A DNA stretch of 47,657 nt from Planctomycetaceae bacterium (lineage in GTDB: Bacteria > Planctomycetota > Planctomycetia > Pirellulales > UBA1268): contig JBJSXB010000129.1 of assembly GCA_046086245.1 (NCBI GenBank), positions 1 through 47,657 on the forward strand, written 5' to 3'. This document shows positions 19,508-38,077 of this stretch, piece after piece. A model generated the notes under the pieces. That model ran no database searches. It saw only the letters and a list, made by a program, of their open reading frames with translations, and was not told where the DNA came from. Each line of letters begins with the position of its first letter. The first letter of the stretch is position 1. Both the position numbers and the translations under genes were made by a program.

Positions 19508-19526
19508 ACACCGTCGCGAGACCACG

Positions 19527-20267
19527 ATGGCAGACGGCACGTCCGATCGCACGATTCCCCCGACACCGCGACGCCGTGAAGCGGCCTGGCAGTCCGGCAC
19601 GATGCCGGGCGCGGCGGCGCCTGCCTGGGCGACCGGTTGCCTGGTCGGCGGCCTGCTGCTGCCACGCTGGTTGGAGGCGACCGCCGCGTCCGCCGCCAGC
19701 CTGCTCGAACGGACGCTGCCGGGGGCGGTGCGCGGCGACGATCCGCTTGCGTCGCTGCCGGCCATCGCCGCGCTGGTGTGGCCCACGGTGGCGCTGGGCG
19801 CCGCCGCCTTGGCCACGTCGGTGGCGGTGCGGGTCGCGTGTGACGGCCTTCGTTGGTCCGCCGCGCGGACCGCGTTCGACCTCCGCCGACTCGATCCCTT
19901 CGCCGGGATCGCGCGGATCGTCGCCGGCGCCACGATCGTCCGCATCCTCGGCGGCGCGCTGGGGGTGTTGGTGATCGGGGCAACGACGCTGTGGGCGTGC
20001 GCCGACCTCCTCACCACCCTCGCCGGCGATGCGGGCCGCTCCACCGCCGCGAGTGTCGCGGCCGGGGGGAGGATGCTCCTGCCGGTCGCGACCGTCACCT
20101 GGCTGGTCGCCGTGACGGGCTGGGGTTGGGTCCGCCGCCGCGCCGAACGCCGCCTGTGGATGACGCCGGAGGAGTTCGCCGCCGAGCGGCGCGCGGCGGA
20201 AAAGGACCCGCGGATCCGCTTCGAGCCCCGCCAACCGTCTCCTGCTCAGACGGCGGGAGGACGGTAA
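19527..20267 (+). CDS. flhB: FlhB membrane domain only (C-terminally truncated, no NPTH)
   Basis: N-terminal RTIPPTPRRREAA, central 'DLRRLDPF-x-G-x-x-RI' and linker 'LWMTPEEF...EKDPRIR', then a stop. Confidence 0.8.
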   Translation: MADGTSDRTIPPTPRRREAAWQSGTMPGAAAPAWATGCLVGGLLLPRWLEATAASAASLLERTLPGAVRGDDPLASLPAIAALVWPTVALGAAALATSVAVRVACDGLRWSAARTAFDLRRLDPFAGIARIVAGATIVRILGGALGVLVIGATTLWACADLLTTLAGDAGRSTAASVAAGGRMLLPVATVTWLVAVTGWGWVRRRAERRLWMTPEEFAAERRAAEKDPRIRFEPRQPSPAQTAGGR

Positions 20268-23122: not shown

Positions 23123-24796
23123 TCAGTCGGCCGCGGTCGTCCGGCCGGTCAAGAGGTCGAAGGCGCCGATCGCCGGCACGAGCAGCGCCGCCGTGGCGAA
23201 CCCGTAGGCGACGAGCACCACGAGCAAGACCTGCAGGCTGTTGCCCTGGAGGAATCCCGTGATTGCCACGAACGTCAACGCCGGCAGCAGGGCCGACGCC
23301 CAGGCGATCGCGGGCGACGGATTGCGTGCCGAGAGCGCCGCGTAGAGGCCGATCGCGCCACCGACGATCACCGCGAGGAACGGTGCCAATTGGAGTTCGA
23401 AGCTGGAGCCGAACGCCACCATGATCCGCATCGCGGTCGCGACACCGATGAACAAGAAGGCGACGGTGCCGAGCGCCACCGCGATCGCCTGCCGCGAAGC
23501 GGAATAGGACAGACCGACGTGGAAGCCGAGCACGGCGGCGAAGAACAACAGCGCGGCCATGCCGATCGCGAGGTAGATGCCGTTCTCGACCGTGGCGATG
23601 CCGGAGGCCACCAGCACGACGCACAGCAGCAGTGGCAGCAGCACGATTTCCCGCGCCACCACCAGCACGCCCAGCAGTTTGCCCCAGACGAACTCGGCCG
23701 GCTCCAGATCGCTCACCAGGAGCAGGTCGAGGGCGCCGCGGTCGCGCTCGTTGGTGATGCTCGTCACCGCGAGTGCCGCCACCGCCACGAGGCTCGCCAG
23801 CGCCATCGGCACCACCGCCAGCGCCACGGCCAGCCGGTCGGGACGGGTCGCCGTCGCCTCGCGGACGATCCCGGCGACCGCGGCGGCGAACAGGACCAGC
23901 CACGCCAGCCGCACCAGGACGATCATCCGCCCGTAGGCCCGCGTGCAGATCTCGCGCCACAGGATCGGATTCCGCCACACACGACGGGCCGGACGAAAAC
24001 CAGCCGCCGCCTCGTCGGCCGTGTGCGGTCGGCGCACCTCCCGGGCCACGTTCCACCGACGCACGAAGGCGACCGCCACCGCGTTGGCTACGACGATGAT
24101 CAGGGCACAGATGCCCAGGAACGGGGACAGCGTGCGGCCTCCTTCCGGCGCGAGTGCGGCGAACACGGCCCGAGCGGGTGAGACCGCGGCGCCGACTGCC
24201 GCGCCGCGCGTGGCGGCGAGCGTCTCGCCGACCGCGATCCACGTGGCGAGGAGGAAGAGGGTGATCGCCAGCGTCTGGAACGTGGTGTCTTTCCAGAAAG
24301 CGACCGTGGTGGCGATGCTCGCCGCCGCGAGGGCCGCGGCGAGCGTCACGACGAACAACCGCACCAACTGCAGGCTGGTGACGCCGCCGAACAGCGCGGC
24401 GATCGCGAACAACGGCACCGCAGCCACCAGGAGGAGCACCACGCGGACGAGACTGCCCGCGAGTTTCCCGAGTACCAACTCCCGGTCGGTGAGCCGGCTG
24501 ACGAGCAGCAATTCGAGCGTCCGGCGGTCCTTCTCCACGCTCACCGCCACGGCGCCGGCGAGGGCGGCGGCGAGCACCGCCAGCGACAACTGGAGCGGAG
24601 CGAGGATGCGCAGCAGCGTGGCGCCGAAACGGGCGGTATCGCCGGCGGTGGCCACCGATTGCGTGCCGGTGACCACCAGCCAACAGGTGGCGATGATCGC
24701 CAGCAGCGCTCCGCCGTACACGGCGCGGGCGACGAACCATCCCCGCGCCCGCGAGGCGTACGACACCTCCCTCTCGAACACCGCACCGAGCAGCAT
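23123..24796 (-). CDS. ABC-2 type permease with two permease repeats
   Basis: Two 'E-(K/R)-D-R-x-x-L-(E/D)-LLLVS-x-L...GKL' repeats and an NPILWRE linker. No ATPase gene is adjacent. Confidence 0.85.
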   Translation of the reverse strand: MLLGAVFEREVSYASRARGWFVARAVYGGALLAIIATCWLVVTGTQSVATAGDTARFGATLLRILAPLQLSLAVLAAALAGAVAVSVEKDRRTLELLLVSRLTDRELVLGKLAGSLVRVVLLLVAAVPLFAIAALFGGVTSLQLVRLFVVTLAAALAAASIATTVAFWKDTTFQTLAITLFLLATWIAVGETLAATRGAAVGAAVSPARAVFAALAPEGGRTLSPFLGICALIIVVANAVAVAFVRRWNVAREVRRPHTADEAAAGFRPARRVWRNPILWREICTRAYGRMIVLVRLAWLVLFAAAVAGIVREATATRPDRLAVALAVVPMALASLVAVAALAVTSITNERDRGALDLLLVSDLEPAEFVWGKLLGVLVVAREIVLLPLLLCVVLVASGIATVENGIYLAIGMAALLFFAAVLGFHVGLSYSASRQAIAVALGTVAFLFIGVATAMRIMVAFGSSFELQLAPFLAVIVGGAIGLYAALSARNPSPAIAWASALLPALTFVAITGFLQGNSLQVLLVVLVAYGFATAALLVPAIGAFDLLTGRTTAAD

Positions 24797-24966
24797 CCCG
24801 GGTCTCCCTGCGGACGGATACCTCCGCCCGTGGCCGGAGGCTATCACAAACCGGCCGACGCGGCCCGGGCCGGTCGGCGGGCCGCCATCGCGGGTCGCGC
24901 GTGGAGGCTTGAGGCGGTGCGGGGAGCGTGTATCGTGAAGCCTTCGACGCCGAAACCCAGCAGGAG

Positions 24967-26400
24967 ATGCCCACCATGTCCCGACGTCGTCCGACCGGCC
25001 CGACCCGCGCCGCCGGCCCCGCGCGAATCGTGCGTGTGGCCCCCTTGGTACTGCTGGCGATCGGCCTCGGGTCGTTCGCGGCCGTCGCCCCGCCACGGGC
25101 GGCGTTCGCGCAGGGGGTGCCGACCGCGCAGATGCTCATCGGCAAGGCGGTGTCCGACGACGATCAGGCCGGCGAAGTGACCAATGCCATCGGCCGCTTC
25201 ATGGCCAGCGACTTCGATGGTTGCCGGGCGACGCTCGAGCGGGTGCGTTCCGCCAATCCGAAGCTGCCGCCGACGGGTGTGATGATGTCGATGCTCTGGA
25301 TGAACGTGAATCGGATCGCCGAGGCCCGCGCCGAGTTGGAGGACACCACCCTCAAGTTCCCCGCCGATCCCGAGCCGTTCCTGATGCTCGGCGACCTCGC
25401 CTTCCAGGATCGGCGGATCACCGAATCGAACCTGCTGTTCAACCAAGCCACCGAACTGACCAAGGCGTTCACCGAGAATCCGAAGCGCAAGCGCGATTTC
25501 GAGATTCGTTGCAACGCCGGCATGGCGGCGGTCGCCGAGGCGCGGCGCCAATGGGACGCGGCCCGGAAGCACATCGAGGCTTGGATGGCCCTCGATCCCG
25601 ACAACGCCAGCGCCCGCCAACGGCTCGGGATCGTGCTGTTCCAACTCGGCGAGGAGGACAAGGCTCTGGAACAGTTCCGCGAGTCGAAGAAGCTCGACCC
25701 GAAGTCGCTGCAGCCGGAGTTGTGGATGGCCCGGCTCTACAGCGACGCCAAGAAGCGCGACGTGGCCCGCAAACAGATCGAGGCGGCGGTGAAGGCCGCC
25801 CCCGGCGACGTCGGCGTGCTCCTCGGCGCCGCGGAGTGGTATCTCGCCCAGAACGATCTCGACGCGGCCAAGACGAACGCCGAAGCCGCGCTCGCCGCCG
25901 ACGAGAAGAACCTCGCCGCCAAGCTGCTCCGTGGCACCGTCGCCCGCGTGGCCCGCGACTACCGCACCGCCGAGCGCTTTCTCAACGAGGCCCACGTTCA
26001 GTCGCCGGGCAATTTTCCCGCCTCCAACTCGCTGGCCCTGGTCCTCATCGAGTCGGAGGAGAAGGAGTCGCGGCAGCGGGCCTTGGAGATGGCCGAGGCC
26101 AACGTCGCGATGTACCGTGACAACGGGGCGATCACCCCCAACGCGCTGACGACGCTGGCCTGGATCTACTACCGTCTCGGGCGCCGCGACGACGCGGAGA
26201 AGGTGCTGGCGCGCGTCACCCAAGGCAACTCCCTGCCGACCGACGGCGCCTACTATCTCGCCAAGGTCCTCTCCGACCGGGGCGACAACGACAAGGCGCG
26301 GGCGATCCTCGAGCAGGTTCTCGGGGGGGACGCGTTCTTCTCGACACGGGCCGACGCGGTCGATCTTCTCGACAAGATCAAGTCGGGCGCCGCCAAGTGA
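24967..26400 (+). CDS. Exported TPR-repeat protein
   Basis: Signal peptide (AAFAQ), multiple TPR-like repeats, CAGGAG RBS. The start may be 24976. Confidence 0.85.
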   Translation: MPTMSRRRPTGPTRAAGPARIVRVAPLVLLAIGLGSFAAVAPPRAAFAQGVPTAQMLIGKAVSDDDQAGEVTNAIGRFMASDFDGCRATLERVRSANPKLPPTGVMMSMLWMNVNRIAEARAELEDTTLKFPADPEPFLMLGDLAFQDRRITESNLLFNQATELTKAFTENPKRKRDFEIRCNAGMAAVAEARRQWDAARKHIEAWMALDPDNASARQRLGIVLFQLGEEDKALEQFRESKKLDPKSLQPELWMARLYSDAKKRDVARKQIEAAVKAAPGDVGVLLGAAEWYLAQNDLDAAKTNAEAALAADEKNLAAKLLRGTVARVARDYRTAERFLNEAHVQSPGNFPASNSLALVLIESEEKESRQRALEMAEANVAMYRDNGAITPNALTTLAWIYYRLGRRDDAEKVLARVTQGNSLPTDGAYYLAKVLSDRGDNDKARAILEQVLGGDAFFSTRADAVDLLDKIKSGAAK

Positions 26401-27202: not shown

Positions 27203-28156
27203 ATGGACCAGGAGACGCTGCTCGGGGTCGGCGCCGGTGTGGTCGTCGCCGGATCGGGGCTCGCCGCTGCGATCCGTGTCCGTGACACCACCGCCGTGCC
27301 GGCGGCGTGGTGGGTGGTCATCGCCGGGGTCGCGTTGGCGGCGGAACGCTGGGCGGCGGCGGGAACCGACGACGCGGCGACGCTCGCCTGCCGCCGACTG
27401 GTGGTCGTCGCGCTGGTGGTCTGTCCCGGACTCGCGCTGTTGGGCGCGAAACGGCCTCAGCACGGGGTCTGGCAGACGATCGTCGCAACGCTCGCGGTGG
27501 TCCTGATGGCGCCGGCGTTGACCGCCTCCCTCGTGCGCCCCGGATCCCTTCCGGACGTGCATCTGCTCTCGAAGGTGTTGGTGACGGCACTGGTGCTGGT
27601 GGGCTGGCTCAATCACGCGGCGACGCGCCGCGGGCTGGCGGCGGCGGCGATCGCCGTGGGCCAACTTCTTTTCGCGCGCCCGTTTCTGCCGGGGGGCGAT
27701 GTCGCCTCGATCGCCGACGATCGCTGGGCGCTCGCCGGCGCGATGGTCGCCGCCGTGGGCAGTGCCCTTGCCGCGCTGTGGCCCGCCCGCGTCCGGCCGC
27801 CGCGCATCGCCCCGTCGCCGGCGCCACCGTCGGATAGCGCCGGCGTGGCGACGATGATCGACCCGGCGTGGCGTGCCTTTCGCGACACCTTCGGCGCGGC
27901 GTGGGCCCTCCGTGTCGCCGAACGGTTCGACGCGACCGCCCGCGACCGCGGCTGGCCGTGTCGCCTGGGGTGGCGGGGAATCACGGTCGCCGAACCGGCG
28001 GAGACGACGCGCGCCGGCACCACCGCGTGGCCGCGCGAGGCCCGGCGGACGCTCGTCGCCCTCCTGCGGAGGTTCGTCGGCAGCGCCTGGCTGACGCGCC
28101 ACGGCATGGACGGCGCAGCCGGCGGGGCGGGCACACCGCGTCAGCGACGGGGCTGA
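27203..28156 (+). CDS. Hypothetical multi-pass membrane protein
   Basis: About 7 hydrophobic segments; LGAKRP and W-x-x-FRD-x-FG-x-x-W-x-x-RV-x-ERF stretches look conserved; GGAG RBS. Confidence 0.7.
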   Translation: MDQETLLGVGAGVVVAGSGLAAAIRVRDTTAVPAAWWVVIAGVALAAERWAAAGTDDAATLACRRLVVVALVVCPGLALLGAKRPQHGVWQTIVATLAVVLMAPALTASLVRPGSLPDVHLLSKVLVTALVLVGWLNHAATRRGLAAAAIAVGQLLFARPFLPGGDVASIADDRWALAGAMVAAVGSALAALWPARVRPPRIAPSPAPPSDSAGVATMIDPAWRAFRDTFGAAWALRVAERFDATARDRGWPCRLGWRGITVAEPAETTRAGTTAWPREARRTLVALLRRFVGSAWLTRHGMDGAAGGAGTPRQRRG

Positions 28157-28290: not shown

Positions 28291-28629
28291 ATGTCCGAAG
28301 AACCCCGCGTCGTCCCCGCCGCACGTCCCGCCGGCGAGCCCATGCCCGTACCGGTCGACGAATCGCACATCGTCGCGACCTACGCCAACTTCTGCCGCGT
28401 CACCGGCACTCCCGAGGAACTGATCGTCGATTTCGGCCTCAACAAGCAGGTGGCTGGCACGGCCCCGTAAACGATCCAACTCACGCAGCGGATTATCGTC
28501 AACTTCTTCACTGCCAAGCGGCTCGCTTATGCGCTGCACATGGCCGTACAACGCTACGAACAGGCCTTCGGCGTCCTCGAAACCGACGTGCAGCGTCGCG
28601 TCGTCCATCAGCAGTCGACGAAAGCCTGA
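28291..28629 (+). pseudogene. DUF3467-family gene interrupted by a single in-frame TAA (28468-28470)
   Basis: YANFCRVTGTPEELIVDFGLN precedes the stop. The same frame continues TIQLTQRIIVNFFTAKRL...YEQAFGVLETDVQRR to TGA 28629. Confidence 0.85.
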
Positions 28630-28955
28630 CTCCATCCCCGCGGCGTAGCAGCTTCCGCCCGGGTGCCCCACCGCACCCGGCGGAGGTGGCTCGCGGGGAG
28701 CCGATGTGTCGGCCACGAGCCCGACCGGCACGAGCCCGACCGCCACGCGGTCGGAACGGGGCTCGCGATACGCCACCATCACGCACCCCCACAACAGGGG
28801 GACCGCACAGTCGCTGCCCTGCGACGTAGTATGGGCGTCCGGTGGTGCTCGATCGTCGGTGGCCGCCGCCGCCTTCGGCTCGCGGTCACCATGGGGCACC
28901 GCCACGCTCCGGCCCGGTGCTCGGCACGCTTTCCCGAACAGGGTCCGAGGATCCG

Positions 28956-31052
28956 ATGAGCACCGTCGATCCCCATTCGGTAGAGGAATCGCGTCAGCAG
29001 ATCCGCGCGATCATCGGTGAGATCGATCAACTGGGGCGCACCGATCTCGCGGAGGCGGATTTTTTCCGGGGTCTGCTCGATCGGGTCATCGAAGCGATGG
29101 GGGCGGTGGGCGGACTGGTGTGGCTGGTCGGCGACCAGGGGCGGTGCGAACCGGTCTGCCACGCCGGCGTCGCCGGCACCGGACTGGCCGAGACGGGCGA
29201 GTCGCAAGAAACGCACGGCAAGCTCGTCCAGTCCCTCCTGGCCGCGCCGCACGCCATGATCGTTCCGGCCCGCGCCCAGCTGGCCGGTCCCGACGGGCGA
29301 CCGGTCGCCGCCAATCCCACCGACTTGTTGGTGATCGCCGCACCGCTCGACCGCAGCGGCAGCCGCGCGGGCCTCCTCGAGGTCTTCCATCACCACAACC
29401 AGCCGGAGGTCGAGCAGGGGTACCTCGTATTCGTCGATCAGGTGGCGGCGGTCGCCAACGGCTATCTCGTCCGTCGGCAGGTCAAGTCGCTCGACAGCCA
29501 GCAGGCGGCGCTGGTGCAGGTCGACCGCTTCAGCCGACAGGTGCACGAGTCGCTCGATCCGGTCGCCACCGCGTTCACCCTGGCAAACGAGGCCCGGCGG
29601 ATCATCGGCTGCGATCGCGTGAGCGTGCTGGTGCGCCGCGGCCGCCGGCTGCGCCTCGATGCGGTCAGCGGCCAGGAGTCGGTGGAGCGGCGGGCGACGG
29701 CCGTCCAGGCGATCGAGGCGCTGGCGCGGGTGGTGGCCCGGGCACGTGATCCGCTCTGGCACCCCGACCCGGGGCGCGAGCTGCCGCCGCAGATCGAGGA
29801 GGAATTGGAGCACTACATCGACGAGTCGCACGCCACCGGCCTGGCGATCCTGCCGTTGCTGCGCCCGCGCAAGACCCCGGTGGTGAAGCCCGGCGGCGTC
29901 GATGCGGTGGCGGTCGCCAAGGCGGAGGCCGCCCCCCCGGCCGATGTCGCCACCGCCGAGCCGATCGGCGTGCTCGTCGCCGAGTGGTTCACCTCGAGCT
30001 CGTTCGACGGCGGGCGCCGGGCGCGCGTCGAGGTGTGTGCCGAACACGGGGCGATCGCGCTGGCCAACTCCCTCGACCATACCGGCCTGCCGTTGTTCCG
30101 GGCGATCGATCTGCTCGGTCGCTCGCGCGTGCTGACCACGGCGCGCAATCTACCCCGAACCGTGCTCGCTGCCCTCGGCGTTCTCGCCACCGCTGCGGCG
30201 CTGGTGTTCATCCCGGCCGAACTGCGGCTCGAGGGGAAGGGGACGCTCGAGCCGGTGGACAAGCGCGACGTGTTCGCCGGCGTCGACGGCGTGGTGAAGG
30301 AGATCGCACCCGAGATCGTCCATGGCGCCGTGGTCAAGAAAGGCGACCTTTTGCTGACCATGCGCAACACCGACCTCGAGGTCGCCCATACCGACGTCCT
30401 GGGCCGCAAGGCGTCGTCGGAAGAGCAGCTCGTCTCCACCCGGCGCGCCCTGCTGGAGGACAAGCGGATCTCGGCGGACGAGCGCACACGGATGGCGGGG
30501 CGCGCCGCCCAGTTGCAGCGCGAGATCGAGAGCCTCGAGGCGCAGCGCAAGCTGTACGAGGACAAGCGCCGGGAACTCGAGGTGCGGAGCCCCATCGACG
30601 GCGTCGTGGTCACCTGGCAGGTCGCCGAGCGGCTTCTGCTGCGTCCCGTGGAGAAGGGACAGGTGCTCCTCACCGTGGCCGACAAGGAGGGCCCGTGGGA
30701 ACTCGAGTTGCACCTGCCCGACGATCGCCTCGGGCACGTCAACGAGGCGGCGCTCGCGGCCCGTTCCGCGGGGCGCGACCTGCAGGTCGATTACATCCTC
30801 GCCACCGATCCCGGCACGCGGCATCGTGGCGCCGTCAAGGAAATCCACGAACTGGCCGAGGTACGCGGCGAGAGCGGCAATGTCGCACTGGTTCGCGTGC
30901 GGATCGACCCCGACCGCCACGAACGCCAGGAGCTCGGCGCCGGCGCCTCGGTGACGGCGCGAATCGGCTGCGGACGCCGGTCATTGGGCTACGTCTGGTT
31001 CCACGACGTGCTCGCCTTCATCCAATCACAGGTGTTGTTCAGGATTTTCTGA
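28956..31052 (+). CDS. GAF-like domains fused to an HlyD/membrane-fusion adaptor domain
   Basis: The N-terminal ~400 aa are GAF-like ('IIGCDRVSVL...AVSG'). They are followed by a TM, lipoyl half-motifs (FAGVDGVV...G-x-x-V-x-KGDLL; RSPIDGVV...VEKGQVL), a coiled coil and a beta-barrel ending in GASVTARI. Confidence 0.88.
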   Translation: MSTVDPHSVEESRQQIRAIIGEIDQLGRTDLAEADFFRGLLDRVIEAMGAVGGLVWLVGDQGRCEPVCHAGVAGTGLAETGESQETHGKLVQSLLAAPHAMIVPARAQLAGPDGRPVAANPTDLLVIAAPLDRSGSRAGLLEVFHHHNQPEVEQGYLVFVDQVAAVANGYLVRRQVKSLDSQQAALVQVDRFSRQVHESLDPVATAFTLANEARRIIGCDRVSVLVRRGRRLRLDAVSGQESVERRATAVQAIEALARVVARARDPLWHPDPGRELPPQIEEELEHYIDESHATGLAILPLLRPRKTPVVKPGGVDAVAVAKAEAAPPADVATAEPIGVLVAEWFTSSSFDGGRRARVEVCAEHGAIALANSLDHTGLPLFRAIDLLGRSRVLTTARNLPRTVLAALGVLATAAALVFIPAELRLEGKGTLEPVDKRDVFAGVDGVVKEIAPEIVHGAVVKKGDLLLTMRNTDLEVAHTDVLGRKASSEEQLVSTRRALLEDKRISADERTRMAGRAAQLQREIESLEAQRKLYEDKRRELEVRSPIDGVVVTWQVAERLLLRPVEKGQVLLTVADKEGPWELELHLPDDRLGHVNEAALAARSAGRDLQVDYILATDPGTRHRGAVKEIHELAEVRGESGNVALVRVRIDPDRHERQELGAGASVTARIGCGRRSLGYVWFHDVLAFIQSQVLFRIF

Positions 31053-31099
31053 TCGGTCGGCACTGGCCGGTCGGCCCGCTCCGCCGGGAGGCTTCGTCG

Positions 31100-32119
31100 A
31101 TGGACATGTCGTGGCGATCGTGGTGGACGGCCGTGGTGGCCGTCATGGCGTGCGGACTTTTCCCGGGGAACCCGGCGCCGGCGGACGACGCGCCCGCGCG
31201 GCCTCGCTCGGTGGAGACGGAGTCGGAGAGCAACGAGCCGATCCTCTCCAATTGCCTCGTATCGCTCGTGGAAGAGGCGAAAGTGCCCGCGCGCGAGGCG
31301 GGCGTGCTCGTTGCACTCGAGATCCGCGAGGGGGATACCGTCAGCCGCGGCGCGGTGATCGCGAAGATCGACGACAGCCAGCCGCAATCGGACCGCCGCA
31401 AGGCGAAGGCGGAACACGACCAGGCGGTCGCCAAGGCGGACAGCGACGTCGATATCCGCTACTCGATCGCCGCCGAACAGGTCGCGAGCGCCGAGCTCGA
31501 GAAGGCCAACGAGGCCAATCGGCGTTCGTTGAACGCCATCACGGAGGTGGAGATCGAACGCCTGCGGCTCAACCAGCAGAAGAGCGCGTTGTCGATCGAG
31601 CAGGCACGGCTCGAGCAAAAGCTCGCCGGTCTGACCGCGACGGCGAAGGAGGTGGAAGTGCAGGCGGCCGGCGCCGCCATCGAACGGCGACTCATTACCG
31701 CCCCACTCGACGGCGTGGTGGTCGAGGTGTTCCCCCACCGCGGTGAGTGGATGCAGCCGGGCGATCCCCTGGCGCGTGTGGTGCGGGCCGACACGCTCCG
31801 GGTCGAGGGCTACGTCGATTCCGCCCGCCACGACCCCGAGGCGGTCCGCGATCGGCCGGTGACCGTCGAGATCACCCTCGCCGACAAGCGGGTGGAGACA
31901 TTCCAGGGCCGGATCGTGTTCACCAGTCCGATCGTCGAATCGGGCGGGGAATACCGCGTTTGGGCCGAGGTCGCCAACAAGCTCGCCCCCGGGGCGGGCA
32001 CGTGGCTGATGCGACCGGGCCAGACGGCGCGGATGACGATCCATTCCAACCGCACGCCGCTCGATCCGGTCCGTCGCGATCTCACCGCCCCGCCCGAAAC
32101 CCCCCAGGCAACGCGCTGA
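31100..32119 (+). CDS. HlyD/RND-type periplasmic adaptor subunit
   Basis: Signal peptide, VPAREAGVL...EGDTV, coiled coil, ITAPLDGVV...GEW-x-x-PG-x-P and MRPG-x-x-A-x-M motifs. Confidence 0.9.
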   Translation: MDMSWRSWWTAVVAVMACGLFPGNPAPADDAPARPRSVETESESNEPILSNCLVSLVEEAKVPAREAGVLVALEIREGDTVSRGAVIAKIDDSQPQSDRRKAKAEHDQAVAKADSDVDIRYSIAAEQVASAELEKANEANRRSLNAITEVEIERLRLNQQKSALSIEQARLEQKLAGLTATAKEVEVQAAGAAIERRLITAPLDGVVVEVFPHRGEWMQPGDPLARVVRADTLRVEGYVDSARHDPEAVRDRPVTVEITLADKRVETFQGRIVFTSPIVESGGEYRVWAEVANKLAPGAGTWLMRPGQTARMTIHSNRTPLDPVRRDLTAPPETPQATR

Positions 32120-32170
32120 TCGCGGACGGCGACGGCCTCCCGCGCGCCCTCCCGAGCCCGAACGATTCCG

Positions 32171-34405
32171 ATGTCGACCGCCGCCGACGCCTTCCGCTCC
32201 AGCACCACCCGGCCGATCGGCCTCCGCCGCCGCGGCGACCTCGTCGCCAATCGGCAGGTGCACCAGGGCCAGGCCTGGTGGGTGGTGAAGGATCCGATCT
32301 CCCTGGCGTACTACCGGTTTCGCCCCGAAGAGTACGCCCTCCTCGACATGCTCGACGGACGGGCGAGCCTCGAAGCGCTCCAGGCACGGTTCGAGGAGAA
32401 GTTTCCCCCGCGCCGGATCGGCCTCGACGAGTTGTCGCGGTTCATCGCCACCCTCCACCGCAGCGGCCTGGTGATCGGCGACCGCACGGGGCAGGGACCG
32501 CAGTTGTTCGAGCGTCGCCGCCAGCGCCTCTGGCGGCAATGGCAGGCGTGGCTCGCCAACATCATGGCGATGCGCTTCCGTGGCATCGACCCCGATCGGC
32601 TTCTGTCCCGGCTCGATCCCTGGTTCGGCTGGTTGTTCACCGCGCCGGCGATCGCGGCGATGCTCGTCTTCATCCTTTCCGCGGTCGGGCTCGTGCTCGT
32701 CAACTTCGATGAGTTCCGCAGCAAGCTGCCCGCGTTCCACCAGTTCTTCGCCTCAGGCAACTGGATGTACCTCGCCGCGGCCCTCGCCTTCACGAAGGTC
32801 CTTCACGAATTCGGCCACGGCTTGTCATGCAAACACTATGGCGGCGAGTGCCACGAGATGGGGGTGATGCTCCTCGTCTTCACCCCCTGCTTGTATTGCG
32901 ACGTGTCCGATAGCTGGATGCTGCCGAGCAAGTGGAAGCGGGCGGCGATCGGCGCCGCGGGGATGTACATCGAGTTGATCATCGCCTCGATCGCCACGTA
33001 TTTGTGGTGGAACTCGCACGCCGGCACGTTCAACCAGCTGTGCCTCGACGTGATGTTCGTCTCCAGCGTGTCGACGATCCTCTTCAACGCCAACCCGTTG
33101 ATGCGGTACGACGGTTACTACATCCTCTCCGACCTGCTCGAGATCCCCAATCTCCGCCAGAAGGCGACGTCGATCCTCGGCCGCGCGGCGAGTTCCTGGT
33201 GCCTCGGCATCGAGCAACCGGAAGACCCGTTCCTACCCCGCCGCAACCGCTGGGCATTCGCCGCCTACGCTGTCGCCAGCAATCTTTACGGATGGTTCGT
33301 GACCGCTTCGATCTTTCTTTTCGTCTGGAACGTGTTCAAACCATATCGGCTCGAGGTGATCGGGCAGGTCCTCGCCGCGGGTGCGCTGTGGGGGCTGGTC
33401 GTCCGCCCGGTCCATGGGATGATCAAATTCCTCAACGTGCCCGGGAGACGCGATGAAGTGAAGCCGCGCAACTTGGCAGCCACCCTCGCCGGTGCCGCCG
33501 CAGTCGTCGCGGCGATCGCGTTGGTACCGCTTCCGCATCGCGTCTGGTGCCCGGTTGAATTGCGTCCGCGCGGCGAAGAGACGGTGTACGTCGCCGTGCC
33601 CGGCACGCTGGACCGGCTGTTGATCCGCGCCGGCGACCGCGTGGAGCGCGGGCAGGAACTCGCGCGTCTGTCGAGCGTCGATCTCGAGCTCGCGATCGCC
33701 GACCTCGAGGGCCGCGCGGCACAGCAGCGCACCCGGCTCGACAGCCTGCGCCGCGAGCGCTTCGGCGACCCGGCGGCCGGGTTGGAACTGGGCACGGCGG
33801 AAGAGACCCTCAAGAGCCTGGAGGAACAGCTGGAGGAAAAGCGGCGCGACCGCCGCGATCTTGTGCTCGTCGCGCCGCGCGACGGCGTGGTGATTCCCGC
33901 TCCGGCCATTCCGCGGCCCGGCGACGACGCCGACCGCCTTCCCGGCTGGTCGGGCCACGCCCTCGACGAGACCAACCTCGGTGCCACCCTCGCCGAAGGC
34001 ACCGTCCTGTGCCACATCGGCGACTCGGGCACGTTCGAGGCGGCCCTCGTGGTCGATCAGTCGGAGATCGAGTTCATCGCCCGCGGCCAGCCGGTCGAGC
34101 TCAAGCTCGACGCGTTCCCCTGGAGAACGATCGCCGGCACGGTCGAGGAGATGGCCGTGATGCACCTCGACGCCGGCTCGGAGCGTTTGAGCGTCAAGGC
34201 GGGTGGGCAGATCCCCACGCAGACCGACCGGGAAGGGCGGGAACGGCCGATCTCCACCAGCTACGAGGCCCTGATGCACGTCGATGATGCCGAGGGCCTG
34301 TTCACGCCCGGCATGCGCGGCACCGCGCGGATCCGTGTCGGCGGCCGCACGGTGGGGCAGTGGCTGCTGCGGCTGCTCTGGCAGACGTTCAATTTCCGTA
34401 TGTGA
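32171..34405 (+). CDS. Site-2 (M50) zinc metalloprotease fused to an HlyD adaptor, with a PqqD-like N-terminal domain
   Basis: HEFGH (32804-32818) and NANPLMRYDG; N-terminal 'VKDP...YYRF...LDG...L-x-x-x-GL' winged-helix/PqqD-like segment; C-terminal lipoyl, coiled-coil and PGMRG motifs. Confidence 0.9.
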   Translation: MSTAADAFRSSTTRPIGLRRRGDLVANRQVHQGQAWWVVKDPISLAYYRFRPEEYALLDMLDGRASLEALQARFEEKFPPRRIGLDELSRFIATLHRSGLVIGDRTGQGPQLFERRRQRLWRQWQAWLANIMAMRFRGIDPDRLLSRLDPWFGWLFTAPAIAAMLVFILSAVGLVLVNFDEFRSKLPAFHQFFASGNWMYLAAALAFTKVLHEFGHGLSCKHYGGECHEMGVMLLVFTPCLYCDVSDSWMLPSKWKRAAIGAAGMYIELIIASIATYLWWNSHAGTFNQLCLDVMFVSSVSTILFNANPLMRYDGYYILSDLLEIPNLRQKATSILGRAASSWCLGIEQPEDPFLPRRNRWAFAAYAVASNLYGWFVTASIFLFVWNVFKPYRLEVIGQVLAAGALWGLVVRPVHGMIKFLNVPGRRDEVKPRNLAATLAGAAAVVAAIALVPLPHRVWCPVELRPRGEETVYVAVPGTLDRLLIRAGDRVERGQELARLSSVDLELAIADLEGRAAQQRTRLDSLRRERFGDPAAGLELGTAEETLKSLEEQLEEKRRDRRDLVLVAPRDGVVIPAPAIPRPGDDADRLPGWSGHALDETNLGATLAEGTVLCHIGDSGTFEAALVVDQSEIEFIARGQPVELKLDAFPWRTIAGTVEEMAVMHLDAGSERLSVKAGGQIPTQTDREGRERPISTSYEALMHVDDAEGLFTPGMRGTARIRVGGRTVGQWLLRLLWQTFNFRM

Positions 34406-34435
34406 ACGGTGGTGCCGCGGCCCCCGGCTGGACCC

Positions 34436-35305
34436 ATGCACGAACACGTCGCTCGCCTCGCGCGGATCACGATCTATCCGCTCAAGAGCCTCGACGGGGT
34501 CGATCTCGAGGCTGCCGACGTGCTCGCCTGCGGGGCGCTCGCCGACGACCGGCGCTGGCGGTTGGTCGACCGCGACGGACGCGTCGTCAACGCCAAGCGC
34601 ACGGCACGCCTCCAGGCGGTACGCGCCACGTTCGACCTGGCCGAACGGCGCGTGCATCTCGCCATCGACCCGAGGGCCGTGCTCCCGGGCGACGGATCAC
34701 CGGCGCCGGAAGCCTTTCCTCTCGTGCCCGGCGCGGCCGGCCCGTGCGCCTGGCTGGGCGCCGTCGTGGGCTACGACCTGCTGCTCGAGGAACGTGCGGC
34801 CGGCGGGTTTCCCGACGACCGCGACGCACCCGGACCGACGCTGGTCGCCGGCGCCACGCTCGATCGCGTCGCCGGCTGGTTCGATCTCACTGCCACGGAG
34901 GTGCGGCGCCGGTTCCGCGTCAACCTCGAGGTCGAGGGGCCCGAGGCGTTCTGGGAAGACACCCTCGCCTGCCCGCTTTCACCCGCGACGGCGCTGGAGT
35001 CCGCGGCGGCGGTCGACCCATACGCGGCGGGCGCTCCCCGGCCGCCGCGGCGCTTCCGCATCGGCGAGCAGGTGTGGGAGCCCCGTGGCGTCTGCCGGCG
35101 CTGCCCGGTGCCGGCACGCGACAGCGTGACGGGCCGCGACCAGCCGCTGTTCCGCGAGGCGTTCGAAACACGGCGACGGCGAGCACTGCGGTCCGACGTC
35201 GACACCGCCGACTGGACGCATCTCTACCGTTTGGCGATCCACACCGTGCCCCATGCGACAGGCGGTCGGATCGCGGTGGGCGACGCGGTCGCGGTGCTTG
35301 GCTGA
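34436..35305 (+). CDS. MOSC-domain protein
   Basis: IYPLKSLDG, DRRW, RRFRVNL, C-R-R-C and 'GRIAVGD' motifs. Confidence 0.88.
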   Translation: MHEHVARLARITIYPLKSLDGVDLEAADVLACGALADDRRWRLVDRDGRVVNAKRTARLQAVRATFDLAERRVHLAIDPRAVLPGDGSPAPEAFPLVPGAAGPCAWLGAVVGYDLLLEERAAGGFPDDRDAPGPTLVAGATLDRVAGWFDLTATEVRRRFRVNLEVEGPEAFWEDTLACPLSPATALESAAAVDPYAAGAPRPPRRFRIGEQVWEPRGVCRRCPVPARDSVTGRDQPLFREAFETRRRRALRSDVDTADWTHLYRLAIHTVPHATGGRIAVGDAVAVLG

Positions 35306-35328: not shown

Positions 35329-37722
35329 TCACTGTGGCGGCAGCGGTACCACGAGGGCCGGATCGTAGACCGGTTGCAGCGGCAGGTAGGTGATGTCGTC
35401 CCAGGTGAACTGGCCGGGCACCTCGAAGATCCGTGCGTTGTTGTTGATCGCGCTCAGGTTCTCGCTGTCGGATGCCTTGATGAAGATCTCGCCGAGGCTC
35501 GGGATGTAGAACACGGTGTCCGGATCGGTCGTCTCGTCGACGAACCAACCGGCGTCGGTGTTGGTGATCCGGATCGTGCCGCCGGTGGTGGTCGTGCCCG
35601 TGCCGGCGGCGATCCGGTTGCCCACCATGTTGGCGTTGACGATCGCCCCCACCTGGTCGGCGACGGAGAGGCTGATGCCGTCGCCGCCAGCCACGGTGCC
35701 GATGCGGTTGTCGGTGAGAGTGATGTCGAGCGTTTGGTTGGCCACCGTGTAGCCGTTGATGCCGATCGTCTCGTCGACGAACGTCGAGTTGGCGACTTGG
35801 ACCACGGAATTGCCGGTGGCGGTGATGCCGGCGTTCCCGTTGGAGCCGAAGAGCGTCGTGAACACCGCCAATTGCCCGCCATCGACGGTGATGCCCGCCG
35901 CACCGGAGTCGCTGATGGTCGAGTTGGTGACGTAGACCCGGCCGTCGTTGTAGAGATCCTTGACGACGATCGCGGAGTTGGCGTTGCCGACGAATGTCGA
36001 GTTGGAGACGTTGACCTTCGGATCGCCACCGGAGCTGGTGATCACCGCGAGGCCGTCGTTGGTCATGTTCTCCACGTACAGATTGGAGAAGTTGAACTGG
36101 GCGTTGCCGGCCGCGAGATCCTGGATGAGGATGCCTCGCTGATCCGGGCCGCTACCGAGAAACCGGACGTCGTTGACGATCGAGTAACTCGCCGCCGGCA
36201 GCCCCGCGCCGTCGGAGAGGCCGATCCGGCTGCCCGTGATCGCGATGTGATCGACGACCGAGCCCTGGGCGAGCGTGATCGCCGTGCCCGCACCGTTGGC
36301 GAACAGCGGGTACTCTGACGTCGGCCCGGCATCGCTCCACAGTGGGACCAAGCCACTGTTGGTGGTCGGCACGAACATGCCCGTTCCCTGGCCGACGAGG
36401 TATTGGTTCGGCGCGCTGAACGTGTAGCCACCCGAGTAGGGCGTGACGGCACTGACCCCTTGGTGGACGAAGATGATGTCGAATTGCCGATTGGCAAGCG
36501 CCTGGGCTTCGGCCAAGGTCGGGACCGGCATCTCCGCGGTGCCTGGGGCCCCGGCGAGAGCCATCGGGCTGGCGGCGGCCATCAGCCGCGGCGTGGGGGC
36601 CGCACCACCGGGGACGGAGTTGTCGACATGGATGACGCGCCACGGCAGCCCGGTAAGCGGATTGATCGCCTGCCGGGCGGCCTGATAGGCGCGCACGATG
36701 TGCTCGTTGCGCATCATCGGCTGCTCGACCTGGTCGGCGACGTTGCGACGCCGCGATCCGCCCATCCGATAGGTGAGCCGCGCAAAGCCGGTCCAGTCGA
36801 AATAGCTGTCGTTGTTGGCCTGGAGGGAGAAGTCCCAATTCTCCATGAAGGTCATGTCGAGGCGCGTATAGACGCCGCCGAAATAGGGCACGACGTCGCG
36901 CCCGTTGGGAAGATTGTAGCGGGCGTTGCCGAAGGTGTAGCCGCCGACGCTGACCATTCCGGCCCAGTCCGACAGGCCGGGGACGTAGGCGCCCACCTCG
37001 AGATCGGCACCCGCCAGTGCGGCGGTGATGCCGAGATTGCCGAGCAGTGAGTTGCCCACGTAGGGCCCGCTCACCGACGCCGTGCTGCCGACGGGAATGT
37101 AGCCGTTGCTGCGGAGGTTGCCCCAGTCGGTGAGGAACTCACCGGACACGCCCACCTGCTGATAGGCCTGGCCACCATTGACGATGTACCGACCGCTGCT
37201 GTCGGTGATGACGCTGTCGGCGTACATGTTCTCGTCGCCGTCGTAGTCCCAGTAGACGCCGACGCCCGTCAGGGCGCCGCCCCAGAACTGCTTGCGCACG
37301 AAGCCGACGTTCGAGAAGAACCCGCCGTAATTCGACAGGTGGCTGCGCAGGTCCGCCGCCCAGAAGCCGCCGAGATCGTCTTCGGCGTACGGGATGAATG
37401 CACCCAGGGTCATGTAGCTGCCCTGGTACCCGAGGCCGCGGTCGGCGGCGTTGAGCCCGTAATAAAACCAACCCGGACCATTCTGATTGAGGTTGGCGAA
37501 ACCGGCCGCTGCCCGATTCACGACGCCTCCGGCGGGCGCCATCGCCATCTGACCGGTCTGGGCCAGGGCCCGGGACGGCATCTCGGCGGCCCCGGCGAGG
37601 GCGAGGAGCAGGGCGGCGAGGCCGCGGCGGCGACGGCGGCGGCGGAGGCGTTCCCGGGTTCCGGGATCGTCCGTCCGTCCGCGCTGTCCCGCGGCGACCG
37701 GTGTGCTGTCTGCGGTGCTCAT
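35329..37722 (-). CDS. Inverse-autotransporter-like outer-membrane protein: N-terminal beta-barrel plus right-handed beta-helix passenger
   Basis: Signal peptide, then alternating aromatic strands (GVYWDYD, QQVGVSGE, RSNGYIP, GADLEVG, DSYFDWTGFARLTYRMG, P-x-x-RN-x-x-IV), then 'IHVDNS...GTAE-x-P' and Asn/Gly/Ile-rich parallel beta-helix repeats. Confidence 0.75.
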   Translation of the reverse strand: MSTADSTPVAAGQRGRTDDPGTRERLRRRRRRRGLAALLLALAGAAEMPSRALAQTGQMAMAPAGGVVNRAAAGFANLNQNGPGWFYYGLNAADRGLGYQGSYMTLGAFIPYAEDDLGGFWAADLRSHLSNYGGFFSNVGFVRKQFWGGALTGVGVYWDYDGDENMYADSVITDSSGRYIVNGGQAYQQVGVSGEFLTDWGNLRSNGYIPVGSTASVSGPYVGNSLLGNLGITAALAGADLEVGAYVPGLSDWAGMVSVGGYTFGNARYNLPNGRDVVPYFGGVYTRLDMTFMENWDFSLQANNDSYFDWTGFARLTYRMGGSRRRNVADQVEQPMMRNEHIVRAYQAARQAINPLTGLPWRVIHVDNSVPGGAAPTPRLMAAASPMALAGAPGTAEMPVPTLAEAQALANRQFDIIFVHQGVSAVTPYSGGYTFSAPNQYLVGQGTGMFVPTTNSGLVPLWSDAGPTSEYPLFANGAGTAITLAQGSVVDHIAITGSRIGLSDGAGLPAASYSIVNDVRFLGSGPDQRGILIQDLAAGNAQFNFSNLYVENMTNDGLAVITSSGGDPKVNVSNSTFVGNANSAIVVKDLYNDGRVYVTNSTISDSGAAGITVDGGQLAVFTTLFGSNGNAGITATGNSVVQVANSTFVDETIGINGYTVANQTLDITLTDNRIGTVAGGDGISLSVADQVGAIVNANMVGNRIAAGTGTTTTGGTIRITNTDAGWFVDETTDPDTVFYIPSLGEIFIKASDSENLSAINNNARIFEVPGQFTWDDITYLPLQPVYDPALVVPLPPQ

Positions 37723-38077
37723 GGCGCCTGGTTCCCGACGGTGGCCGGCCGGCCGGGCTGCAATGTCCCCGGCGAACCTCTGACCGGCATGATCGGCAGG
37801 AGTGATCGACCCCGCGCCACGCGAACCATGAGCATTTTCGGAACAGAGCCCGGAACCGGGGAAACCACCCGGGTTTACCCCGTCGTCCCGGCCGCCGCGC
37901 CGGTCGTGTCTTACCCGAAATACGGCCGAATTGAACCCGGATGGGGTCGGCCGCGTATCCGGTTCTGGCGAACCGTGGCGGGGTGCGATACCCTCGGCTC
38001 CGGGGTCGTTCGTTGGTGGCAAGGCAGGGCGACGTGTGAACGGGGGCGCCGTGCACACTCTTCGTGGAGGTCGATCC

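What the first reader, a model, noticed from the sequence alone, without database searches (positions are those of the whole stretch)
28291..34405. ABC-less type I-like export system: DUF3467, GAF-HlyD, HlyD and a PqqD-like/M50 protease/HlyD fusion
Seen: three consecutive membrane-fusion-protein genes with no ABC, RND or MFS transporter. The only polytopic membrane component is a site-2 protease domain with intact zinc ligands (HEFGH, NPLMRYDG). It is preceded by a PqqD/RRE-like domain and fused to its own adaptor. Another adaptor carries cytoplasmic GAF-like domains. Established: MFPs bridge an inner-membrane transporter to TolC, PqqD-like domains bind leader peptides, and M50 enzymes cleave within or near membranes. 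Inference: a secretion machine in which the M50 fusion recognises and cleaves a leader and acts as, or gates, the inner-membrane conduit of a heteromeric MFP channel. The GAF domains and DUF3467 could be cytoplasmic regulator or chaperone. I recall similar clusters next to giant adhesin genes in other phyla but know of no mechanistic characterisation.
Basis: partly seen in the sequence, partly recalled or inferred. Interest (0 to 1): 0.85.

Follow-up and report, generated by a model that had tools for sequence, protein, structure and literature searches.

The report
SecA-linked adaptor/protease export gene cluster
This is one more copy of a widespread but never tested planctomycete gene module, first described in 2015, that looks like a secretion machine built from three periplasmic adaptor proteins, a membrane protease with a leader-peptide-binding domain and a shortened SecA motor encoded elsewhere in the genome.

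Summary
No ABC, RND or MFS gene lies in the operon.

The module is already in print. Kamneva, Poudel & Ward (2015, PMC4452313) described it and proposed the same ABC-less, type-I-like exporter. They named a truncated secondary SecA as the ATPase.

This genome has that SecA (679-aa frame, no scaffold/wing domain) on another contig, and three TolC-family genes.

Results here that I did not find in that paper's main text:
- The N-terminal domain of the fusion is an RRE. The RRE–M50 half is homologous to the daptide leader peptidase.
- DUF3467 co-occurs with the fusion (67 genomes with both, 19 and 38 with one, 277 with neither). It lies within 10 kb of it in at least 32 genomes.
- All zinc-site residues are invariant in 33 of 33 homologues.
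- DUF3467 in the window carries an in-frame TAA. Contigs from three other metagenomes read GAA there.

ABC ATPase genes occur near only 5 of 80 further loci.

Cargo, assembly and energy coupling remain inferred. The verdict is a new member of a known, uncharacterised kind, of moderate interest.

The parts
28291..28629 (+). DUF3467 small protein (112 codons) with an in-frame TAA at 28468-28470
   Evidence: PF11950 at 72.9 bits spans the stop. Homologues have E, G, K or D at that column. Contigs of three other metagenome runs read G at 28468, giving GAA. The family co-occurs with and lies next to the M50-HlyD fusion.
28956..31052 (+). GAF-GAF-TM-MFP protein (698 aa from ATG 28956; GTG 28842 is an alternative start)
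   Evidence: HlyD_3, HlyD_D23, Biotin_lipoyl_2 and sub-threshold GAF_2/GAF matches. GAF is found in 12 of 16 homologues. Single hydrophobic segment at 403-421. Adjacent to the fusion in 50 of 80 loci.
31100..32119 (+). Short periplasmic adaptor (HlyD no. 2, 339 aa) with a signal-peptide-like N-terminus
   Evidence: HlyD_3, HlyD_D23; RND_mfp at 94.8 bits against a cut-off of 94.9. Next to the fusion in 16 of 20 and 54 of 80 loci. The Cys in its N-terminus is not conserved, so a lipoprotein call was dropped.
32171..34405 (+). RRE/PqqD-like - M50 intramembrane metalloprotease - MFP fusion (744 aa)
   Evidence: NF041824 daptide_HExxH at 185.9 bits over residues 31-421, below the cut-off of 300. 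AlphaFold2 model with mean pLDDT 85.8. Foldseek top hits are MacA, ZneB, MexA, AcrA and EmrA. More than 6171 homologues. Found in 105 of 401 genomes of the phylum.
32222..32479 (+). RRE (PqqD-like winged-helix) domain, about residues 18-103
   Evidence: 29 of 33 homologous segments hit PF05402. The profile hits TfuB1 6jx3_B, PqqD 3g2b and TbiB1 5v1u. The model has strands at 18-50 followed by helices at 52-97.
32804..32818 (+). HEFGH zinc-binding/catalytic motif (residues 212-216)
   Evidence: H212, E213 and H216 are invariant in 33 of 33 aligned homologues.
33092..33115 (+). NPLMRYDG motif (residues 308-315), holding the third zinc ligand of M50 proteases
   Evidence: N306, N308, P309, L310, D314 and G315 are invariant in 33 of 33. 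The role of the Asp as a zinc ligand is from general knowledge of site-2 proteases.
33527..34390 (+). Periplasmic adaptor (MFP) part of the fusion, about residues 453-740, with a two-helix hairpin at 503-562
   Evidence: HlyD_D23 and HlyD_3. Model secondary structure. Foldseek E 1e-13 to 1e-10 to MacA, MexA, AcrA and EmrA.

Best explanation
The four genes are the membrane and periplasmic part, plus one small cytoplasmic accessory, of the 'secondary SecA_DEAD / M50-HlyD / HlyD / GAF-HlyD' module of Kamneva et al. 2015.

Proposed working (inferred):
- The three adaptor paralogues form a mixed MFP ring that docks on a TolC-family outer-membrane channel. Three such genes are in this genome. These are the secreted short HlyD, the GAF-GAF-TM-HlyD, and the RRE-M50-HlyD fusion.
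- The cytoplasmic RRE domain of the fusion binds an N-terminal leader of a ribosomally made cargo.
- The M50 site cuts the leader off in the membrane plane, as the homologous daptide peptidase MpaP does.
- A truncated SecA paralogue encoded on another contig supplies ATP-driven pushing of the polypeptide. It keeps NBD1, the preprotein-binding domain and NBD2, but has no scaffold/wing domain.
- The GAF domains and DUF3467 act on the cytoplasmic side as sensor/dock and as adaptor or chaperone.

Shown: domain identities, conserved catalytic and ATPase motifs, gene linkage and co-occurrence.

Inferred: that the parts assemble, that anything is exported, what the cargo is, and which membrane element forms the conduit.
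For: - Domains.
- M50 zinc site invariant in 33 of 33 homologues.
- The RRE-M50 half matches the daptide intramembrane leader peptidase model at E 1.2e-54. The daptide paper describes an RRE fused N-terminally to a site-2 protease that removes the leader (10.1101/2023.03.08.531785, passages read).
- The MFP part has the fold of MacA, MexA, AcrA and EmrA.
- Core operon conserved: HlyD2 in 54 of 80 and GAF-HlyD in 50 of 80 loci.
- Short SecA adjacent in 7 of 20 and 10 of 80 loci. By my reading of coordinates it lies within 10 kb of the fusion in at least 17 further genomes.
- Of 42 genomes with a short (<=800 aa) SecA-like frame among the 150 rows listed, 37 also have the fusion. The baseline is 105 of 401.
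- This genome has the short SecA: SecA_DEAD, PP_bind and P-loop_SecA, with no SecA_SW. It is 53% identical to the cluster-linked one of G370.
- Walker A and the DEAD motif are conserved in 28 of these proteins.
- A TolC-like gene is adjacent in 4 of 20 loci. This genome has 3 OEP genes.
- DUF3467: 67 genomes with both, 19 with DUF3467 only, 38 with the fusion only, 277 with neither. It lies within 10 kb of the fusion in at least 32 genomes. In G207 it forms a DUF3467 - SecA-like - short-HlyD operon.
- The published proposal is the same (PMC4452313).
Against: - No experiment exists for any member. Kamneva et al. report that in M. extorquens only the GAF gene was clearly expressed.
- In this genome the SecA-like and TolC-like genes are unlinked (C253, C335). 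The neighbours of unlinked SecA-like genes are not conserved.
- G043 and G300 (99-100% complete) have the fusion, DUF3467 and a GAF-like 625-aa frame. Only a canonical SecA was found there with my query. The short SecA may therefore not be obligatory.
- No cargo or leader-bearing gene is conserved beside the cluster.
- DUF3467 also occurs in 19 genomes without the fusion, and in Thermus, Bacteroides and Methanosarcina controls.
- The truncated SecA lacks the part that canonical SecA uses to engage SecY. No channel-forming partner is shown.
- Genomes in the co-occurrence counts are related, so the odds ratio overstates the association.
Confidence: 0.5

Rival explanations
1. A peptide (RiPP-like, bacteriocin or signal) maturation-and-export device. 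The RRE-M50 fusion cleaves the leader of a small precursor encoded elsewhere. The adaptors only funnel the peptide through TolC. The short SecA is not part of the machine in this genome.
For: The closest characterised relatives of the RRE-M50 half are RiPP leader peptidases: daptide model at 185.9 bits, YydH/LiaK model at 52.6 bits. The SecA-like gene is unlinked here. G043 and G300 carry the fusion without a detectable short SecA.
Against: No modifying enzymes or precursor-like short ORFs lie near the cluster in the window or in 20 other loci. Both NCBIfam scores are far below their cut-offs. The short SecA keeps its preprotein-binding domain and is the only ATPase recurrently linked.
Confidence: 0.2
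2. A regulated-intramembrane-proteolysis signalling device. The M50 protease, held in the envelope by adaptor-like domains and controlled by the GAF sensor, cleaves a membrane-bound regulator rather than exporting anything.
For: M50 site-2 proteases are best known for cleaving membrane-tethered regulators (general knowledge). GAF domains are sensors. No transporter is present. Kamneva et al. suggest a regulatory role for the GAF protein.
Against: Three full MFP paralogues with TolC-docking-type hairpins. TolC-like and SecA-like genes are recurrently adjacent. The N-terminal domain is an RRE of the kind used for leader peptides. No sigma or anti-sigma genes are adjacent in the window.
Confidence: 0.12
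3. Ordinary tripartite efflux. The three adaptors serve an ABC, RND or MFS pump encoded elsewhere, for example the ABC-2-type permease 3 kb upstream. The M50 fusion is an accessory.
For: An ABC-2 membrane protein lies at 23123-25096. The short HlyD scores 94.8 bits against the RND_mfp cut-off of 94.9. ABC ATPase genes lie within 10 kb in 5 of 80 loci.
Against: No ABC, RND or MFS family is shared by 3 or more of the first 20 loci. The 5 of 80 ABC genes sit at varying places, and in L094 next to another HlyD-like gene on the opposite strand. No ABC ATPase was found in the window. The ABC-2 gene is on the other strand, behind a TPR gene and a 7-TM gene.
Confidence: 0.08

Closest known systems
Secondary SecA_DEAD / Peptidase_M50-HlyD / HlyD / GAF-HlyD conserved locus (Kamneva, Poudel & Ward 2015, PLoS One, PMC4452313)
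   Same: The same three adaptor-containing proteins with the same domain make-up. The same truncated SecA is in the genome. OEP genes are elsewhere. The paper makes the same proposal of an ABC-less, type-I-like system with the M50 membrane domain as a possible pore.
   Different: Here the SecA gene is on another contig. The paper's main text does not contain the terms DUF3467, PqqD or 'leader'. Its supplementary tables could not be opened. In this clade DUF3467 stands upstream of the GAF-HlyD gene.
Daptide leader peptidase MpaP/DapP (RRE fused to an intramembrane site-2 protease; NCBIfam NF041824)
   Same: N-terminal RRE followed by an M50 core with HExxH. The match covers residues 31-421 against profile positions 13-376 of 379, E 1.2e-54. 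By homology this suggests leader recognition and removal.
   Different: The score of 185.9 is below the cut-off of 300. There is no daptide precursor, decarboxylase, aminotransferase or methyltransferase nearby. The protein has a C-terminal periplasmic adaptor of about 290 residues. It comes from a diderm planctomycete rather than Actinomycetota or Bacillota.
Classical type I secretion system (HlyB-HlyD-TolC) and MacAB-TolC / AcrAB-TolC tripartite pumps
   Same: MFP fold with lipoyl, beta-barrel and hairpin parts. TolC-family genes are in the genome and sometimes adjacent.
   Different: There is no ABC, RND or MFS inner-membrane component. There are three different adaptors instead of one, one fused to a protease and one to GAF domains. 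The linked ATPase is SecA-derived.
Accessory SecA2 systems of Gram-positive bacteria and mycobacteria
   Same: A second SecA paralogue presumably dedicated to special cargo.
   Different: This comparison is recalled, not tested here. The present paralogue lacks the scaffold/wing domain. It is linked to adaptors, an M50 protease and TolC, not to SecY2 or Asp proteins.

Membership tests
Kamneva 2015 SecA_DEAD/M50-HlyD/HlyD/GAF-HlyD module | Protein combining Peptidase_M50 similarity with HlyD domains | tested here: met
Kamneva 2015 SecA_DEAD/M50-HlyD/HlyD/GAF-HlyD module | Protein combining GAF with HlyD/biotin-lipoyl domains | tested here: met
   The window protein has sub-threshold GAF matches. 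GAF is found in 12 of 16 homologues.
Kamneva 2015 SecA_DEAD/M50-HlyD/HlyD/GAF-HlyD module | Stand-alone HlyD/biotin-lipoyl secretion protein in the same locus | tested here: met
   Gene at 31100-32119.
Kamneva 2015 SecA_DEAD/M50-HlyD/HlyD/GAF-HlyD module | Secondary SecA_DEAD protein in the genome besides the canonical SecA | tested here: met
   G000:C253 has a 679-aa frame with SecA_DEAD, PP_bind and P-loop_SecA. The canonical SecA is on C265 in a 1239-aa frame.
Kamneva 2015 SecA_DEAD/M50-HlyD/HlyD/GAF-HlyD module | SecA_DEAD gene in the same neighbourhood as the three HlyD proteins | tested here: not met
   The genes are on different contigs (C253 and C129). The paper itself notes that partners can be encoded elsewhere.
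Classical type I secretion system | Dedicated ABC transporter (HlyB type) with the adaptor | tested here: not met
   None in the operon. No ABC ATPase found in the window. An ABC ATPase lies near 5 of 80 related loci.
Classical type I secretion system | Membrane fusion protein and TolC-family outer-membrane factor | tested here: met
   Three MFPs. Three OEP genes elsewhere in the genome.
Peptidase M50 (site-2 protease) | HExxH in a membrane helix plus a downstream NxxPxxxxDG-type motif | tested here: met
   HEFGH at 212 and NPLMRYDG at 308, invariant in 33 of 33. The Pfam score of the window protein is 25.7 against a cut-off of 27.2.
Daptide intramembrane metalloprotease (NF041824, equivalog) | Score at or above the curated cut-off (300 bits) | tested here: not met
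   185.9 bits. This makes it a homologue, not an equivalog.
Daptide intramembrane metalloprotease (NF041824, equivalog) | Co-located daptide precursor and modification enzymes | tested here: not met
   None among the window genes. No conserved short ORF.
PqqD / RiPP recognition element (PF05402) | Significant match to the family or to solved RREs | tested here: met
   The window protein alone scores 13.8 bits, below the cut-off of 23.4. At family level, 29 of 33 segments match with best E 3.5e-8. PDB profile hits are TfuB1 at 7.6e-4 and PqqD at 0.0046.
PqqD / RiPP recognition element (PF05402) | Binds a leader peptide | not testable with these tools
   No candidate leader was identified.
DUF3467 (PF11950) | Score above the curated cut-off over the full domain | tested here: met
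   72.9 bits against a cut-off of 25, with the in-frame TAA read as X.

The most novel reading that the evidence does not exclude
The module is a distinct trans-envelope secretion system, and the proposal has four parts. First, a SecA-derived motor stripped of its SecY-binding scaffold pushes leader-bearing cargo. Second, an RRE-M50-adaptor fusion receives that cargo: it both recognises and removes the leader, and together with two other adaptor paralogues it forms the inner-membrane entry to a TolC duct. Third, DUF3467 is a dedicated cytoplasmic subunit (cargo adaptor or chaperone) of this system. Fourth, such a machine would be an ABC-independent route combining parts of the Sec, type I and RiPP-processing machineries.
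Probability: 0.3. Interest if true: 0.85.

Novelty: new member of a known kind. Interest (0 to 1): 0.5.

Why it matters
If the module really exports proteins or peptides, it would be a secretion route without an ABC, RND or MFS pump, driven by a SecA derivative and coupled to intramembrane leader removal. It is common: 105 of 401 sampled genomes of the phylum carry it, often in two copies. The 120 closest homologues in public data are 73-89% identical over 744 residues, which points to strong selection. The kind has been in print since 2015 without any experiment.

- an RRE domain that should bind the cargo's leader;
- an invariant catalytic site that can be mutated to trap substrates;
- DUF3467 as a further co-inherited component.

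For this particular window the finding is ordinary: one more member of the kind.

Tried and rejected
- Complex prediction. Short SecA with DUF3467, using the cognate pair of G370 with alignments A3 and A4: no verdict, score 0.00 in two runs, controls not run. This counts neither for nor against binding.
- DUF3467 fold. The AlphaFold2 model has pLDDT 74, with three strands and a long helix. Foldseek against the PDB gave no match at E<=0.001. The best were MRP1/2, Sub1/PC4 and PUR-alpha at E 0.28-1.3. A SecB-like fold that I had expected did not appear. Sequence search of the PDB found nothing.
- Short ORFs. A search for conserved ORFs of 20-100 aa outside the large genes in 21 loci found only low-complexity noise. 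BLAST on short peptides is weak, so this is not proof of absence.
- HlyD no. 2 as a lipoprotein. Rejected: the Cys is not conserved, with a lipobox-like string in 2 of 16 homologues.
- Short SecA travelling only with GAF-HlyD. Not upheld: G043 and G300 lack the short SecA but have a GAF-like 625-aa frame.
- Neighbours of unlinked short-SecA genes (13 loci). Not conserved beyond single genera. The 302-aa and 504-aa genes flanking it in this genome are therefore not counted as parts.
- Neighbours of DUF3467 in genomes without the fusion. Uninformative.
- The 7-TM gene at 27203-28156 and the MOSC gene at 34409-35305. They are syntenic only in close relatives (5 and 6 of 80 loci) and are not counted as parts.
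- Other phyla. The search for related loci returned only Planctomycetota among its best 80. Occurrence in other phyla rests on Kamneva et al., not on my calls.
- Truncated list. The phylum scan with the short SecA was cut at 150 of 839 rows. A full co-occurrence table for SecA could not be made.
- Literature. Searches found no paper on this module other than PMC4452313. Searches were irrelevant hits. Searches were poorly chosen searches that gave nothing useful. Supplementary files of papers were closed, and the supplementary tables of PMC4452313 may list further neighbours such as DUF3467.


Full report
**Observation.** The window has about 70% G+C, so I picked frames by third-position G+C and then by family searches. 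Four genes lie head to tail on the + strand.

1. 28291-28629 matches DUF3467 (PF11950, 72.9 bits). The frame holds a TAA at 28468-28470, and the match runs across it.
2. 28956-31052 (ATG; a GTG at 28842 is an alternative start) has HlyD_3, HlyD_D23 and Biotin_lipoyl_2. It also has two sub-threshold GAF matches at residues 33-164 and 202-369. One hydrophobic segment at 403-421 separates these halves. Of 16 homologues, 12 hit PF01590 GAF at E<=0.01, best 2.6e-10.
3. 31100-32119 is a short adaptor: RND_mfp scores 94.8 bits against a cut-off of 94.9. It has a signal-peptide-like N-terminus.
4. 32171-34405 is the fusion. It has HEFGH at 212-216 and NPLMRYDG at 308-315. Peptidase_M50 scores 25.7 bits against a cut-off of 27.2, and HlyD_D23 and HlyD_3 match.

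No ABC, RND or MFS gene lies in the operon. The nearest transporter-like gene is an ABC-2-type permease on the other strand at 23123-25096. An ABC ATPase query found nothing in the whole window. The stop codon in DUF3467 was not noted.

**The N-terminal domain of the fusion.** The window protein alone gives only 13.8 bits for PqqD. I aligned 33 N-terminal segments from the window and 32 loci (A1). Of these, 29 hit PF05402 at E<=1, best 3.5e-8. The profile of A1 finds three relevant solved structures: the lasso-peptide RRE TfuB1 (6jx3_B, E 7.6e-4), PqqD (3g2b, E 0.0046) and TbiB1 (5v1u, E 0.18).

NCBIfam places residues 31-421 on the model for the daptide intramembrane metalloprotease (E 1.2e-54, 185.9 bits, cut-off 300). 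More weakly, it matches the YydH/LiaK epipeptide protease (52.6 bits, cut-off 225). The daptide paper (10.1101/2023.03.08.531785; passages read) describes RRE domains fused N-terminally to an intramembrane site-2 protease, MpaP, which removes the leader.

A full-length AlphaFold2 model built with 33 homologues has mean pLDDT 85.8. It shows:
- strands at 18-50 and three helices at 52-97, a winged-helix layout;
- a helical membrane domain with a beta-hairpin at 229-244 after the HExxH helix;
- an adaptor part from 453 onward, with a two-helix hairpin at 503-562.

Foldseek puts MacA, ZneB, MexA, AcrA and EmrA on top at E 1e-13 to 1e-10. H212, E213, H216, N306, N308, P309, L310, D314 and G315 are invariant in 33 of 33 homologues. 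The protease site is therefore kept throughout the family.

**Distribution and neighbours.**
- The fusion has more than 6171 relatives in the large protein collection. The best 120 are 73-89% identical over full length. Their names include 'putative peptide zinc metalloprotease protein', 'biotin/lipoyl-binding protein' and 'HlyD family efflux transporter periplasmic adaptor subunit'.
- It was found in 105 of 401 sampled genomes of the phylum, in 75 of 244 good-quality ones, and often twice per genome.
- I fetched 20 loci of about 20 kb from 17 genomes and clustered their ORFs. The families shared by at least 4 loci are: the adaptors, the short HlyD (16 loci), a SecA-like protein of about 620-720 aa (7 loci), DUF3467 (5 loci, plus L050 by Pfam), a TolC-like protein (4 loci), a sulfatase-like family and a porin family (BBP2). 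No ABC, RND or MFS family was among them.
- In 80 further loci, all Planctomycetota, my own HMMs gave this tally: fusion 80, short HlyD 54, GAF-HlyD 50, DUF3467 21, SecA-like 10, TolC-like 2. Many of these loci are cut by contig ends.
- Six loci that are 70-77% identical to the window (L057, L058, L059, L061, L062, L085) have the window's order: DUF3467, GAF-HlyD, then the fusion, with HlyD2 called between them in four.
- Other recurrent neighbours in these 80 loci are cadherin-like giant repeat proteins (9 loci), MOSC (6), homologues of the window's 920-aa protein (6), and an ABC ATPase (5, at varying places).

**It is already described.** A literature search found Kamneva, Poudel & Ward 2015 (PMC4452313). 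I read its abstract and sections 16 and 17.

[quoted passage not shown] These sit in a conserved locus with three proteins carrying HlyD domains: one with weak Peptidase_M50 similarity, one with GAF, and sometimes an OEP protein.

The authors make three further points:
- The SecA_DEAD protein may serve as the ATPase and the M50 membrane domain as a possible pore.
- They note that there is no ABC transporter.
- The biological role is unknown.

The main text does not contain DUF3467, PqqD or 'leader'. Further searches found no later work on the module.

**The missing motor in this genome.** The window's genome (3.9 Mb, 368 contigs, 94% complete) has two SecA_DEAD genes. One is a canonical SecA on C265 in a 1239-aa frame. 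The other is a 679-aa frame on C253 with SecA_DEAD, the preprotein cross-linking domain and P-loop_SecA, but no wing/scaffold domain. The short one is 53% identical to the cluster-linked protein of G370. Its neighbours are unrelated genes. Neighbours of unlinked short SecA genes in 12 other loci are not conserved across genera.

In 28 such proteins the Walker A (TGEGKT) and VDEAD motifs are invariant or nearly so. Public records call them simply 'preprotein translocase subunit SecA'.

By my reading of the coordinates, the short SecA lies within 10 kb of the fusion in at least 17 genomes. Five more come from the loci. The list was cut at 150 of 839 rows, so this is a lower bound.

Among the listed rows, 42 genomes have a SecA-like frame of 800 aa or less, and 37 of them carry the fusion. 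Of the other five, G339 is cut at a contig start, G065 and G109 may be truncated too, and G098 is 83% complete.

Against an obligatory link: G043 and G300, both 99-100% complete, have the fusion and DUF3467 but only a canonical SecA with my query.

Three OEP genes are present in the genome. The one on C335 is 42% identical to a cluster-linked TolC-like protein.

**DUF3467.** In the same 401 genomes PF11950 was found in 86. The counts are: both families 67, DUF3467 only 19, fusion only 38, neither 277. The odds ratio is 25.7. Relatedness of the genomes inflates this figure.

By coordinates, DUF3467 lies within 10 kb of the fusion in at least 32 of the 67 genomes. In G207 and G223 it lies directly upstream of the short SecA. 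In G207 it is followed by a short HlyD.

The family is wider than the module. Ten of the 19 'DUF3467 only' genomes are of one family (f35). The control genomes Thermus, Bacteroides and Methanosarcina also have it. Proteins with two or three DUF3467 domains occur in the related class.

Its model is a three-stranded sheet with a long helix, with no significant structural match.

**The stop codon.** Homologues have E, G, K or D at the aligned position, which is a loop. The sequence downstream of the stop is as conserved as the rest. Logan contigs of three runs from three studies all read G at 28468, giving GAA: X1 at 23.2 of 23.2, X5 at 109.4 of 109.4, X8 at 16.3 of 16.3. X12 has no cover there.

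Those contigs are short (68-132 bases), and this stretch draws contigs of many relatives. They show what near relatives carry, not what the source strain carries. The TAA is therefore private to this assembly. It is either an error or a recent nonsense allele.

**How it most likely works.** See Best explanation. Four kinds of evidence are shown:
- the parts and their conserved catalytic and ATPase motifs;
- the homology of the RRE-M50 half to a leader peptidase;
- the adaptor fold;
- the linkage and co-occurrence with a truncated SecA, TolC-like proteins and DUF3467.

Three things are inferred: the assembly of a mixed adaptor ring on TolC, leader-dependent recognition and cleavage of a cargo, and ATP-driven pushing by the short SecA.

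The cargo is unknown. Large cadherin-like, beta-helix or Ig-repeat proteins are next to some loci. The window has a 920-aa protein without Pfam match and a subtilase just downstream. None of these is consistently linked.

**Verdict.** I file the window's cluster as a new member of a known, experimentally untouched kind. I did not find the RRE assignment, the homology to RiPP leader peptidases or the DUF3467 association in the paper's main text. These make the system more testable. Interest is 0.5.

Noticed in passing
window 28468-28470: There is an in-frame TAA inside an otherwise well conserved DUF3467 gene. Contigs from three other metagenome runs read GAA (Glu) here, and homologues have E, G, K or D. 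It is probably an assembly error or a very recent nonsense allele.
   Followed up: yes
window 35329-38091 (-) and 37832-39943 (+): A 920-aa protein has no Pfam or NCBIfam match and a repeat-rich C-terminal half; that its repeats resemble a beta-helix is my impression from reading the sequence, with no tool support. Its homologues lie in the flanks of the cluster in 6 of 80 loci. Beside it, divergently transcribed, is a subtilase with a Calx-beta domain. Both are possible cargo candidates. This was not tested.
   Followed up: partly
window 23123-25096 (-): An ABC-2-type permease-like protein of 657 aa, with two ABC2_membrane matches and weak GldF similarity, has no ABC ATPase gene detectable anywhere in the window.
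   Followed up: partly
window 27203-28156 (+): A seven-segment membrane protein without any family match lies just upstream of DUF3467. Its homologues recur in 5 of 80 loci; in L085 the homologue sits just upstream of DUF3467.
   Followed up: partly
window 15192-20267 (+): There is a run of flagellar/type III export genes (FliF/YscJ, FliP, FliR-type, FlhB-type) with long N-terminal extensions in the open frames.
   Followed up: no
window 353-10482 (+): There is a cytochrome c oxidase cluster: cytochrome c, COX2, COX1, CtaA, COX3 and DUF420.
   Followed up: no
G043:C1:122623-123210, G270:C1:3357753-3358388 and others: Frames of 240-320 aa hold two or three DUF3467 domains in tandem, often next to a single-domain DUF3467 gene. 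They occur in the related class f4.
   Followed up: no
L048 (G172:C1:76500-96400): Two complete sets (about 650-aa adaptor, M50-HlyD fusion, short SecA) lie within 17 kb of each other on one contig.
   Followed up: no
G274:C588:3263-5038, G157:C1:5353492-5355132, G156:C1:140499-142667: Matches to the short SecA or to the fusion lie inside unusually long open frames (1388, 1306 and 1207 aa, the last with one TAG). These may be fused forms.
   Followed up: no
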